64,000 nt of DNA, from the NCBI RefSeq assembly GCF_009914755.1, contig NC_060945.1; one strand, written 5' to 3'. Positions 32,681 through 54,748 of the stretch are shown here, piece by piece (the stretch's first letter is position 1; every line of letters starts with the position of its first letter). Origin of the DNA: the human T2T-CHM13v2.0 reference genome, Homo sapiens. The notes beneath the pieces were generated by a model that saw only the letters and a list, made by a program, of their open reading frames with translations, did no database searches and was not told where the DNA came from. Position numbers and translations under genes: made by a program.

Positions 32681-32856
32681 AAATATCATAACATTAACTA
32701 GCCCCAGAAATATAAGATTTTAATGAAATAAAAATGCCTCTATAATAATCAAACAGTGAGAAGAAAGTCACACTTTACTCCTATTTTTGTTTCTGATCTA
32801 TCTTCTATCTAGTTTCAAGTTGTAGAATTTTCTTTTTTCATTTCTAATTAAATTTT

Positions 32857-35723
32857 ATTTTATTTTATTTTTTTATTATACTTTAACTTTTACGGTACAT
32901 GCGCACAACATGCAGGTTTGTTACATATGTATACATGTGCCATGTTGGTGTGCTGCACCCAGTAACTCGCCATTTAACATTAGGTATATCTCCAAATGCT
33001 ATCCGTCCCCCCTCACCCTACCCCACAACAGGCCCCGGAGTGTGATGTTCCCCTTCTTCTGCCCATATGTTCTCTTTGGTCAATTCCCACCTATGAGCGA
33101 GAACATGCGGTGTTTGGTGTTTTGTGCTTGGATAGTTTGCTCAGAATGATGGTTCCAGCTTCATCCATGTCCCTATAAAGGACATGAACTCTTCATTTTT
33201 TATGGCTGCATTTTGTTCCATGGTGTATATGTGCCACATTTTCTTAATCCAGTCTATCATTGTTGGACATTTGGGTTGGTTCCAAGTCTTCGCTATTGTG
33301 AACAGTGCCGCAATAAACATACTTGTGCTTGTGCCTTTATAGCAGCATGATTTATACTCCCTTGGGTGTATACCCAGTAATGGGATGGCTGGGTCAAATA
33401 GTATTTCTAGTTCTAGAGCCCTGAGGAATCGCCACACTGACTTCCACAATGGTTGAACTAGTTTACAGTCCCACCAACCGTGTAAAAGTGTTTCTATTTC
33501 TCCACATCCTCTCCAGCACCTGTTGTTTCCTGATTTTTTAATGATCGCCATTCTAAGTGGTGTGAGATGGTATCTCATTGTGGTTTTGATTTGCATTTCT
33601 CTGATGGCCAGTGACGATGAGCATTTTTCCATGTGTCTTTTTGCTGCATAAATGTCTTCTTTTGAGAAGGGTCTTCATATCCTTCACCCACTTTTTGATG
33701 GGGTTGTTTTTTTCTTGTAAATTTGTTTGAGTTCATTGTAGATTCTGGATATTAGCCCTTCGTCAGATGAGTAGATGGCACAAACTTTCTCCCATTCTGT
33801 AGGTTGCCTGTTCAGTCTGATGGTAGTTTCTTTTGCTGTGCAGAAGCTCCTTAGTTTAATTAGATCCCATTTGTCAATTTTGGCTTTTGTTGCCATTGCT
33901 TTTGGTGTTCTAGACATGAAGTCCTTCCCCATGCCTATGTCCTGAATGGTATTGCCTAGGTTTTCTTCTAGGGTTTTTACGGTTTTAGGTCTAACATTTA
34001 AGTCTTGAATCCATCTTGAATTAATTTTTGTATAAGGTGCAAGGAAGGGATCCAGTTTCAGCTTTCTACATACGGCTAGCCAGTTTTCCCAGCACCATTT
34101 ATTAACTAGGGAATCATTTCCCCATTTCTTGTGTTTGTCAGGTTTGTCAAAGATCAGATGGTTGTAGATATGTGGCATTATTTCTCAGGGCTCTGTTCTG
34201 TTCCATTGGTCTATATCTCTGTTTTGGTACAAGTACAATGCTGTTTTGGTCACTGTAGCCTTGTAGTATAGTTTGATGTCAGGTAGCGTGATGGCTCCAG
34301 CTTTGTTCTTTTGGTTTAGGATTGACTTGGCAATGAGGGCTCTTTTTTAGTTCCTTATGAACTTTAAAGTAGTTTTTTTCTAATTCTGTGAAGAAAGTCT
34401 TTGGTAGCTTGATGGGGATGGCATTGAATCTATAAATTACCTTGGGCAGTATGGCCATTTTCACGATATTGATTATTCCTACCCATGAGCATGGAATGTT
34501 CTTCCATTTGTTTGTATCCTCTTTTATTTCATTGAGCAGTGGTTTGTAGTTCTCCTTGAAGAGGTCCTTCACGTCCTTGTAAGTTGGGTTCCTAGGTATT
34601 TTATTCTCTTTGAAGCAATTGTGAATGGGAGTTCACTCACGATTTGGCTCTCTGTTTGTCTGTTATTGGTGTATAAGAATGCTAATGATTTTTGCACACT
34701 GATTTTGTATCCTGAGACTTTGCTGAAGTTGCCTATCAGCTTAAGGAGATTTTGGGCTGAGATGATGGGGTTTTCTAGATATACAATCATGTCATCTGCA
34801 AACAGGGACAATTTGACTTCCTCTTTTCCTAATTGAATACCCTTTATTTCCTTCTCCTTCCTGATTGCCCTGGCCAGAATTTCCAACATTGTGTTGAATA
34901 GGAGTGGTGAGAGAGGGCATCCCTGTCTTGTGCCTGTTTTCAAAGGGAATGCTTCCAGCTTTTGCCCATTTAGTATGATATTGGCTATGGCTTTGTCAGA
35001 GATAGCTCCTATTACTTTGAGATACGTCTCATCAATTCCTAATTTATTGAGAGTTTTTTGCAGGAAGAGTTGTTGAATTTTGTCAAAGGCCTTTTCTGCA
35101 TCTCTTGATATCTCAAGATAATCACATGGTTTTTTTGTCATTGGTTCTGTTTATAAGGTGGATTACGTTTGTTGATTTGTGTATGTTGAACCAGCCTTGC
35201 ATCCCAGAGATGAAGCCCACTTGATCATGGTGGATAAGCTTTTTGATATGCTGCTGGATTCGGTTTGCCAGTATTTTATTGAGGATTTTTGCATAGATCT
35301 TCATCGGAGATATTGGTCTAAAATTCTCTTTTTTTGTTGTGTCTCTGCCAGGCTTTGGTATCAGGATGATGCTGTCCTCATAAAATGAGTTAGGGAGGTT
35401 CCCTCTTTTTCTATTGATTGGAATAGTTTCAGAAGGAATGGTACCAGCTCCTCCTTGTACCTCTGGTAGATTTTGGCTGTGAATCCATCTGGTCCTGGAC
35501 TTTTTCTGGTTGGAAAGCTAATTATTAATTATTGCCTCAATTTCAGAGCCTGTTATTGGTCTATTCAGAGATTCAAATTCTTCCTGGTTTAGTCTTGGGT
35601 GGGTGTATGTGTCGAGGAATTTATCCATTTCTTCTAGATTTTCTAGTTTATTTGCATAGAGGTGTTTATAGTATTCTCTGATGGTAGTTTGTATTTCTGT
35701 GGGATCGGTGGTGATATCCCCTT
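32857..35723 (-). mobile_element. L1PA (approx. PA3-5), 3' half: RT, C-terminal domain, 3'UTR, poly-A
   Basis: ORFs 33141-33632, 33684-34178 and 34569-35141 ([14 protein letters not shown]...LFADDMIVY) are near-consensus ORF2p; the element ends abruptly at 35723. Confidence 0.97.
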
Positions 35724-54400: not shown

Positions 54401-54748
54401 AGACACAACATACCAGAATCTATGGGACACATTCAAAGCAGCGTGTAGAGGGAAATTTATAGCACTAAAGGCCCACAAGAGAAAGCAGAGAAGATCTAAA
54501 ATTGACACCCTAACATCACAATTAAAAGAACTAGAGAAGCAAGAGCAAACACATTCAAAAGCTAGCAGAAGGCAAGAAATAACTAAGATCAGAGCAGAAT
54601 TGAAAGAAATAGACACATAAAAAACCCTTCAAAAAATCAGTGAATTCAGGAGCTGGTTTTTGAAACGATCAACAAAATTGATAGACTGCTAGCAAGACTA
54701 GTAAAGAAGAAAAGAGAGAAGAATCAAATAGACGCAATAAAAACTGAT
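51457..54748 (+). mobile_element. L1PA (approx. PA3-5), 5' half: 5'UTR promoter, ORF1, ORF2 endonuclease
   Basis: GGGGGTGGAGCCAAGATGG start; ORF1 MGKKQSRKTENSKNQS (with stops); ORF2 MTGSNAHKTILTLKVNGLNSPIKRHRL at 53562; ends abruptly at ...GCAATAAAAACTGAT. Confidence 0.97.
51534..51911 (-). CDS. L1 antisense ORF0-like reading frame (125 aa, C-terminally extended)
   Basis: MVGAPPPGLLLPCSLISDCCASNDCGSVGVGPSEPGAGYNLLV...RVGVTRFSRC matches primate L1 ORF0 and is open to 51534. Expression unknown. Confidence 0.55.
   Translation of the reverse strand: MVGAPPPGLLLPCSLISDCCASNDCGSVGVGPSEPGAGYNLLVCRLLRPLEQYSVRVGVTRFSRCNLSPLSLTRKGYSLTPCTSWVRRCLTMLWLTWGALHPLSCTHFLTLPSEMSPVPQLEMQK

What the first reader, a model, noticed from the sequence alone, without database searches (positions are those of the whole stretch)
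32843..54748. One full-length L1 split into two opposite-strand halves reveals a ~19-kb inversion (35724-54748)
Seen in sequence: the + strand L1 5' half stops at ...GACGCAATAAAAACTGAT (54748), and the - strand L1 3' half starts at AAGGGGATATCACCACCGATCCC (35723). In the recalled L1 consensus these are consecutive (TGAT-A-AAGGGGATATC), with about 1 nt lost. The 14-mer AAAATTTAATTAGA just before the 5' end (51443-51456) is the exact reverse complement of TCTAATTAAATTTT next to the poly-A (32843-32856), so both halves share one target-site duplication. Inference: reversing 35724-54748 rebuilds a single ~6.2-kb L1 with direct TSDs. The breakpoints show no long homology, which points to end-joining rather than NAHR. 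The halves are not adjacent, so this is not twin-priming. The inversion post-dates this L1PA insertion, and a repeat annotator would list the halves as unrelated fragments.
Basis: partly seen in the sequence, partly recalled or inferred. Interest (0 to 1): 0.85.

Follow-up and report, generated by a model that had tools for sequence, protein, structure and literature searches.

The report
Split L1 marks 19-kb inversion
One old, dead L1 retrotransposon next to the human ribosomal RNA gene arrays was cut in two when about 19 kb of DNA flipped over, a real but ordinary evolutionary inversion that sits identically on all five rDNA-bearing chromosomes.

Summary

- **The two halves.** The L1 5' half (51457-54748, + strand) and 3' half (32857-35723, - strand) carry the same 14-bp target-site duplication.
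- **One element.** In 6 of 6 full-length genomic L1 copies the 5' half ends at position p and the 3' half starts at p+2. Exactly one base is missing. Both halves are equally similar to those copies, at 91-93%.
- **Outgroup test.** An old paralogue on chr19 (77-86% identical) keeps the uninverted order: A flank, then the reverse complement of 51455..35723, then 54751 onward. It has an empty L1 site with a single copy of the duplicated 14-mer. A chr7 paralogue shows the same adjacency.
- **Mechanism.** The breakpoint flanks share no homology beyond chance. About 1 nt is lost at the L1 break and about 10-12 nt at the other. This fits two double-strand breaks rejoined by end-joining.
- **Distribution.** Both junctions are 100% identical and collinear on chr13, 14, 15, 21 and 22. 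The inversion is therefore fixed in the rDNA distal junction of this genome and is not an assembly error.
- **In print.** I found no mention of it.

It is a new example of a known kind of event. Interest is modest: no gene is affected, but it could serve as a dating marker.

The parts
31729..32842 (+). Left flank (A). Collinear and same strand as the chr19 paralogue, ending at the L1 insertion site.
   Evidence: 31729-32476 matches C19:30336179-30336931 (81.7%). 32463-32857 matches C19:30337168-30337558 (77.4%).
32843..32856 (-). Target-site duplication copy next to the L1 A-rich tail. It is the reverse complement of the 14-mer at 51443-51456.
   Evidence: sequence; chr19 holds a single copy, 12 of 14 identical.
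32857..35723 (-). L1 3' half, 2867 bp: the part of ORF2 with the reverse transcriptase, the 3' UTR and the A-rich tail. The reading frame is broken into pieces.
   Evidence: aligns to reference copies from p+2 to their 3' ends. (RVT_1, E 1.7e-24, at 34569-35141 minus strand). (longest sense ORF 190 aa).
35723..35724 (.). Inversion junction 1: the L1 interior joined to host DNA that once lay next to 54749.
   Evidence: a 200-bp probe across it is 100% identical on C13, C14, C15, C21 and C22; the host side aligns to chr19 up to 30354562.
35724..51442 (.). Inverted host DNA, 15,719 bp. It runs opposite to the chr19 and chr7 paralogues. It includes later repeat insertions, for example 36134-38183, which is absent from chr19.
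   Evidence: 12 blocks from 51455 down to 35723 map in ascending order to C19:30337545-30354562 on the opposite strand. for chr7.
51443..51456 (+). Target-site duplication copy directly before the L1 5' end.
51457..54748 (+). L1 5' half, 3292 bp: 5' UTR, ORF1 and the endonuclease part of ORF2. The frames are broken.
   Evidence: (Exo_endo_phos, E 6.1e-07, at 53562-53879 plus strand). (longest sense ORF 145 aa).
54748..54749 (.). Inversion junction 2: the L1 interior joined to the right flank.
   Evidence: a 300-bp probe across it is 100% identical on all five acrocentric chromosomes..
54749..63122 (+). Right flank (C). Collinear and same strand as the chr19 paralogue.
   Evidence: 54751-55470, 57253-59781, 59783-60017, 60021-62613 and 62925-63122 map in order to C19:30354575-30370643.

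Best explanation
A full-length L1 of intermediate age (L1PA4/5-like) inserted by ordinary target-primed reverse transcription. It entered the minus strand of the DNA distal to the rDNA array, the distal junction (DJ), and made a 14-15-bp target-site duplication.

Later, two double-strand breaks occurred. One was inside L1 ORF2, between the endonuclease and reverse-transcriptase domains. The other was about 19 kb away in unique AT-rich DNA. The 19,025-bp segment between them (now 35724-54748) was rejoined in reverse by non-homologous end-joining. About 1 nt was lost at the L1 break and about 10-12 nt at the other.

The rearranged copy is now the only form on all five acrocentric chromosomes of this genome. 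Either it arose before the DJ spread among those chromosomes, or exchange between them carried it to all five.

- **Shown here:** the split, the shared insertion site, the inverted order relative to two outgroup paralogues, the lack of breakpoint homology, and presence on five chromosomes.
- **Inferred:** the repair pathway, the order 'insertion then inversion' (an L1 can only insert in one piece), and neutrality.
For: **One element**
- In 6 of 6 full-length reference L1 copies the halves are consecutive with one base skipped. An older chr19 L1 gives the same.
- Identity to the same six copies is 91.3-92.3% for the 5' half and 91.8-93.6% for the 3' half.
- A star-tree fit gives terminal branches of 0.052 and 0.041, with similar ratios to the references.
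- One chr3 full-length copy appears among the 35 best non-DJ hits for both the 5' UTR and the 3' end.
- The endonuclease domain is in the 5' half and the reverse transcriptase in the 3' half.

**One insertion site**
- The exact 14-mer sits at both termini.
- On chr19 the two flank alignments overlap by 14 bp on a single copy of it.

**Inversion**
- chr19 shows the order A(+), reverse of B, C(+). Position 35724 lies about 12 bp from 54751.
- chr7 shows the reverse complement of 55038..54751, followed 69 bp later by 38441 onward.

**No recombination substrate**
- The longest shared k-mer between 500-bp breakpoint flanks is 8-11, against 8-13 in 200 shuffles.

**Not an artefact**
- Both junction probes are 100% identical on C13, C14, C15, C21 and C22.
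- Five probes keep near-constant offsets on each chromosome.
Against: - No ape or monkey orthologue and no other human haplotype could be examined, so the age and fixation of the inversion are untested.
- The chr19 and chr7 copies are old paralogues (77-86% identity), not orthologues. The 10-12-bp 'loss' at the second breakpoint could partly be an unrelated small indel.
- The window L1 has a longer terminal branch (0.041-0.052) than the six reference copies (0.020-0.036). The references may therefore belong to a slightly different or younger subfamily. They were also picked for similarity, which biases them low.
- End-joining is inferred only from the absence of homology. Microhomology of 0-2 nt cannot be resolved.
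Confidence: 0.93

Rival explanations
1. The inverted arrangement arose in a single replication-based event, by template switching of the FoSTeS/MMBIR type. Alternatively it arose while the segment was being copied from a now-lost source locus that already carried the intact L1. Either way it would not be a simple two-break inversion in place.
For: The region is part of an old multi-copy duplication with copies in the DJ, chr19 and chr7. The chr7 copy has a deletion junction with a small templated-looking duplicate of an Alu piece, so such processes do act on this family.
Against: - Neither DJ junction has inserted or duplicated bases, and microhomology is 0-2 nt.
- No other locus in the genome carries these flanks with an L1. 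Outside the five DJ copies the best L1 matches are at most 91-93% identical.
- The three paralogues differ by about 15% while the L1 is about 4-5% from its relatives. The L1 therefore entered long after the duplication.
Confidence: 0.04
2. Non-allelic homologous recombination between inverted repeats flipped the segment, as in retrotransposon recombination-mediated inversions.
For: Other L1 fragments and Alus lie in and near the segment.
Against: - Such an event leaves chimeric but complete repeats at both ends. Here an L1 interior abuts unique DNA at both junctions.
- The flanks share nothing beyond chance.
- chr19 shows unique sequence at the second site.
Confidence: 0.01
3. The orientation is an assembly error, or the two L1 pieces are unrelated fragments: independent truncated insertions, or a twin-priming product.
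For: Acrocentric short arms are hard to assemble. Twin priming also gives opposite-strand L1 pieces.
Against: - Both junctions are identical on five separately assembled chromosomes, with constant spacing of 18,865-19,030 bp.
- The halves are consecutive to the base in 6 of 6 references.
- They share one insertion site, which is empty in chr19.
- In twin priming the halves touch and the duplicated site flanks the break-side of the inverted piece. Here it flanks L1 position 1, and 15.7 kb of host DNA intervenes.
Confidence: 0.01

Closest known systems
Evolutionary inversions with blunt or microhomology breakpoints (two double-strand breaks rejoined by non-homologous end-joining), as catalogued in human-ape comparisons
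   Same: Two breakpoints, no flanking inverted repeats, loss of a few bases at each junction, and a neutral intergenic setting.
   Different: It lies inside the rDNA distal junction and is present identically on five non-homologous chromosomes. One breakpoint happens to cut a full-length L1, so the event can be polarised from a single genome.
Retrotransposon recombination-mediated inversions (Lee et al. 2008, PMC2603318; I saw only the search listing and the start of the abstract)
   Same: An L1 sits at an inversion breakpoint.
   Different: There, inverted L1 or Alu pairs recombine and cause the inversion. Here the L1 is a passive victim, there is no partner repeat at the other breakpoint, and there is no homology.
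L1 twin priming (5' inverted L1 insertions; recalled from Ostertag and Kazazian 2001, not read here)
   Same: The two parts of one L1 lie on opposite strands and the break is inside the element.
   Different: The halves are 15.7 kb apart. The 5' end is complete and carries its own target-site duplication. Two paralogues show that the intervening DNA was flipped.
DJ-LINE1 of Ataei et al. 2025 (PMC11795452; passages read)
   Same: A full-length-derived L1 conserved at one position in all five human distal junctions.
   Different: That element is an intact L1PA2 about 350 kb into the DJ, found through a database of full-length L1s. This one is older, dead, split, and only 19-41 kb from the rDNA. 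A full-length search would not list it.

Membership tests
Full-length L1 insertion by target-primed reverse transcription | Complete 5' UTR start at one end and an A-rich tail at the other | tested here: met
   The 5' half aligns from base 1-5 to the 5' ends of six full-length copies. The 3' half aligns to their 3' ends. The A-rich tail is at 32857-32877.
Full-length L1 insertion by target-primed reverse transcription | Direct target-site duplication, single copy at the empty site | tested here: met
   The 14-mer is at both termini. There is a single copy at the chr19 paralogous empty site, where the flank alignments overlap by 14 bp. The empty site is a paralogue, not an orthologue.
Full-length L1 insertion by target-primed reverse transcription | Endonuclease and reverse-transcriptase coding regions in L1 order | tested here: met
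   Exo_endo_phos is in the 5' half and RVT_1 in the 3' half. The frames are broken.
L1PA4/L1PA5 subfamily | Subfamily-diagnostic bases | tested here: inconclusive
   Only published primer sites in the 5' half were checked. The L1PA4/5 forward primer has 0 mismatches and its reverse has 3. The L1HS/L1PA2 primers have 5 and 3 (primers from PMC12432230 Table 1). No Dfam/RepeatMasker library was available, and the 3' half was not tested this way.
Simple two-break inversion repaired by end-joining | Segment reversed relative to an outgroup while both flanks stay collinear | tested here: met
   chr19 and chr7.
Simple two-break inversion repaired by end-joining | No extended homology at the two breakpoints; only small losses | tested here: met
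   Longest shared k-mer is 8-11, against 8-13 in shuffles. 1 nt is lost in the L1 and about 10-12 nt at the second site relative to chr19.
Simple two-break inversion repaired by end-joining | An uninverted orthologous state exists in a related species or haplotype | not testable with these tools
   No primate or pangenome sequence is held. Only paralogues could be used.
NAHR / retrotransposon recombination-mediated inversion | Inverted homologous repeats at both breakpoints, chimeric after the event | tested here: not met
L1 twin priming | Inverted and direct L1 parts adjacent within one pair of target-site duplications | tested here: not met
   The halves are separated by 15,719 bp of host DNA plus a copy of the duplication. 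That host DNA is inverted relative to chr19.
Replication-based template switching (FoSTeS/MMBIR) | Junction microhomology with templated insertions or associated duplications | tested here: not met
   There are no inserted bases at either junction and no duplicated flank. Microhomology of 0-2 nt cannot be resolved at 86% paralogue identity.

The most novel reading that the evidence does not exclude
The inversion is an ape-lineage rare genomic change that was carried to fixation on all five NOR chromosomes by exchange between non-homologous short arms. It would then give a datable marker for when the rDNA-adjacent part of the distal junction was last homogenised.

Its second breakpoint may also be a recurrent breakage site. 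In the independent chr7 paralogue a ~655-bp deletion ends 2-4 bp from the same position. A rough post-hoc estimate of that happening by chance is about 0.01.

As a side effect, the flip turned the L1 5' UTR and its promoter from pointing away from the rDNA to pointing towards it, 19 kb upstream.
Probability: 0.2. Interest if true: 0.5.

Novelty: new member of a known kind. Interest (0 to 1): 0.35.

Why it matters
The distal junction is thought to anchor rDNA arrays at the nucleolus. It is kept nearly identical on five chromosomes (passages from PMC3847771, PMC6942050 and PMC12058530).

A clean, polarised structural change only 19-38 kb from the first rRNA gene, shared by all five copies, can serve as a marker. 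Finding which apes have the intact L1, the split L1 or no L1 would date both events. It would also bound when this part of the junction was last homogenised.

The case shows that L1 surveys restricted to full-length elements miss elements split by rearrangement. The rDNA-proximal ~31 kb of the junction also has old uninverted paralogues on chr19 and chr7 that can serve as outgroups.

Otherwise it is an ordinary neutral inversion: no annotated gene or functional element lies in the segment.

Tried and rejected
- **A second rearrangement.** Window 30027-30957 matched chr19 in reverse, beyond the collinear block. It is a multi-copy interspersed repeat: 78 matches, 40 of 182 candidates scored. Rejected.
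- **A forward-strand chr19 match to 50940-51213**. It is an Alu, since it matches all the other Alu positions in the window. Rejected.
- **Hairpin or palindrome fragility at the second breakpoint.** The chr19 ancestral-type 101 nt fold no better than shuffles: z = +0.90, and 162 of 200 shuffles fold at least as well. Rejected.
- **Microhomology from a shared A-rich motif** between the L1 break and the second site. It lies inside the retained L1 sequence, not at the junction. Not used.
- **Whole-segment search of the genome with a 19.9-kb query**. It was swamped by L1 matches: 9 of 118,023 candidates were scored and none was acrocentric. Uninformative. Collinearity on the other four chromosomes therefore rests on five separate probes.
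No base-by-base comparison of the five copies was made.
The segmental-duplication tables of PMC3847771 and the ape DJ dot-plots of PMC12058530, which may already show the chr19/chr7 paralogy or this inversion, were not seen.
- **Literature.** Four searches and passages of seven papers gave no mention of this inversion or of a split L1 in the distal junction.
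Full report
**Setting.** The hub annotation places the window at chr21:3038001-3102000 of T2T-CHM13, with the first 45S rRNA gene starting at window position 74036. The genome search confirmed the placement as G000:C21:3038001-3102000. 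The finding therefore lies in the rDNA distal junction (DJ), 19-41 kb from the rDNA.

**Observation.** Searches show the four sequence statements exactly as written.
- The + strand L1 piece starts at 51457, just after aaaatttaattaga (51443-51456), and ends ...aaaaactgat at 54748.
- The - strand piece starts, in L1 sense, at 35723. It ends in an A-rich tail at about 32857-32877, followed by the same 14-mer (reverse complement at 32843-32856).
- A self-BLAST of the window shows that no other copy in the window resembles these pieces at more than 90%.

Instead I took six full-length L1 copies from the same genome (L032-L037). They were chosen from the best hits to the 5' UTR. One of them, on chr3, is also among the best hits to the 3' end.
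- In 6 of 6, the 5' half aligns through its last base to reference position p and the 3' half begins at p+2. An older full-length L1 on chr19 gives the same result, 30385637 then 30385639. Exactly one nucleotide is missing.
- Identity to the six copies is 91.3-92.3% for the 5' half. It is 91.8-92.6% for the 3' half, or 93.6% for one copy that aligns only in part.
- A star-tree least-squares fit of pairwise distances gives the window element a terminal branch of 0.052 (5' half, which includes the CpG-rich UTR) and 0.041 (3' half). The references give 0.020-0.036.
- The halves are thus about equally old. The element is somewhat more diverged than the references, which were selected for similarity.
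- Pfam finds the endonuclease domain in the 5' half and the reverse transcriptase in the 3' half. The break therefore lies between the two ORF2 domains. The reading frames are in pieces, so the element is dead.

**Subfamily.** No repeat library was available. Published primers (PMC12432230, Table 1, read) gave these mismatch counts in the 5' half:
- L1PA4/5 forward 0, reverse 3.
- L1PA5-designed pair 2 and 2.
- L1HS/L1PA2 pair 5 and 3.

The six references fit the L1PA4/5 primers with 0-1 mismatches. This weakly supports an L1PA4/5-like element. [quoted passage not shown] Ages in millions of years would be recalled rather than measured, so I give none.

**The decisive outgroup test.** Searching the genome with the non-L1 side of each junction found the five acrocentric copies and an old paralogue on chr19.
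- Window 35724-36113 matches C19:30354174-30354561 on the minus strand.
- Window 54751-54948 matches C19:30354575-30354769 on the plus strand.

The two host sequences are 19 kb apart and in opposite sense in the window.

Over 80 kb of chr19 the whole picture holds:
- 31729-32857 runs forward.
- Twelve blocks from 51455 down to 35723 run in reverse.
- 54751-63122 runs forward again.
- Identity is 77-86% throughout.

At the L1 site, the left-flank alignment ends at C19:30337558 and the alignment of the reversed right flank starts at 30337545. They overlap by 14 bp on a single copy of the duplicated motif, 12 of 14 bases identical. chr19 is thus both 'empty' and 'uninverted'.

A third paralogue on chr7 has the reverse complement of 55038..54751, followed after 69 bp by 38441 onward. 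Its overall order is the same uninverted one.

An L1 can only insert in one piece, so the DJ arrangement is the derived one. The three paralogues differ from each other by about 15%, while the L1 is about 4-5% from its relatives. The L1 therefore entered the DJ copy long after the duplication.

**Mechanism.**
- The 500-bp flanks on the L1 sides and the host sides share only 8-11-base exact words. In 200 shuffles the longest shared word is 8-13 bases.
- Neither junction has inserted bases.
- One nucleotide is lost in the L1.
- Relative to chr19, about 10-12 bp between ...aaaccc and ...attt(t/a)tgtgg is absent. At 86% identity, part of that could be an unrelated indel.
- The ancestral-type second site has no unusual hairpin potential.

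This is the signature of two double-strand breaks rejoined by non-homologous end-joining. NAHR, twin priming and template switching each fail a defining feature (see the membership table).

**Distribution.**
- The probes across junction 1 and junction 2 are 100% identical on C13, C14, C15, C21 and C22.
- Five probes (30027, 32880, 35624, 51457, 54649) have the same order and strand on each of the five chromosomes.
- Their offsets are constant to within 5 bp on C13 and C22. On C14 and C15 there is a 153-161-bp length difference between 35.8 kb and 51.4 kb.
- No sixth copy of either junction exists in the genome.

The inversion is therefore fixed in the DJ of this genome and cannot be a local misassembly.

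**What is known.**
- They also describe the whole DJ plus rDNA unit being inverted in chimpanzee and bonobo. That is a different and much larger event.
- Floutsakou et al. screened for segmental duplications at 85% identity or more over at least 1 kb. That threshold would catch this 77-86% paralogy only in part.
- Ataei et al. found a different, intact L1PA2 at about 350 kb using a full-length L1 database.
- In four searches and the passages read from seven papers I found no mention of this 19-kb inversion or of a split L1 here.

**Verdict.** The finding is real and correctly interpreted. It is a new instance of a familiar kind of event, neatly self-polarising and in an interesting neighbourhood, with no sign of function. 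Its main use is as a marker for dating DJ evolution.

One oddity deserves a look. An independent deletion in the chr7 paralogue ends 2-4 bp from the DJ's second breakpoint.

Noticed in passing
window 31729-63122; L024-L031 (C19:30336179-30370643); L038-L044 (C7:66617437-66640093): The rDNA-proximal ~31 kb of the distal junction is one of three old paralogous copies, all pairwise about 80-86% identical. The others lie on chr19, near the centromere on the q side, and on chr7. The homology stops at about 63122; nothing but Alus matches in 64001-74000.
   Followed up: partly
L041-L042 (C7:66625266-66631381), equivalent to window 38649-38661: The chr7 paralogue carries its own, different full-length L1, about 90-91% identical to the DJ one. 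It sits at another site, where window positions 38649-38661 appear on both sides, which looks like a 13-bp target-site duplication. It is an independent insertion of a similar-aged L1 into the same paralogous segment.
   Followed up: partly
L014 1601-1800 (C7:66624887-66625086) versus C19:30354571 and window 54749-54751: chr7 lacks about 655 bp present in chr19. The right end of this deletion is 2-4 bp from the DJ inversion breakpoint. The junction holds a 66-bp Alu 5' fragment with a small repeated piece. This could be a recurrent break site or chance (rough post-hoc estimate about 0.01).
   Followed up: partly
window 36134-38183: About 2 kb of masked repeats just inside junction 1 is absent from chr19 (chr19 30354156-30354171 bridges it). 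It is therefore an insertion specific to the DJ lineage.
   Followed up: no
window 35.8-51.4 kb versus C14 and C15: The DJ copies on chr14 and chr15 are 153-161 bp shorter within the inverted segment than those on chr13, chr21 and chr22. They also score slightly lower in four probes. This suggests two DJ sub-types: 13/21/22 and 14/15.
   Followed up: no
window 30027-30957: A multi-copy interspersed repeat at 80-87% identity, with a cluster of copies at chr19 20.1-20.9 Mb and a second diverged copy elsewhere in each DJ (for example C21:2988801-2990300). The family was not identified.
   Followed up: partly
window 51457-54748: After the flip, the L1 5' UTR (sense promoter) points towards the rDNA and towards the predicted lncRNA LOC124904993 (63919 onward). 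Before the flip it pointed away. No evidence of activity was sought.
   Followed up: no
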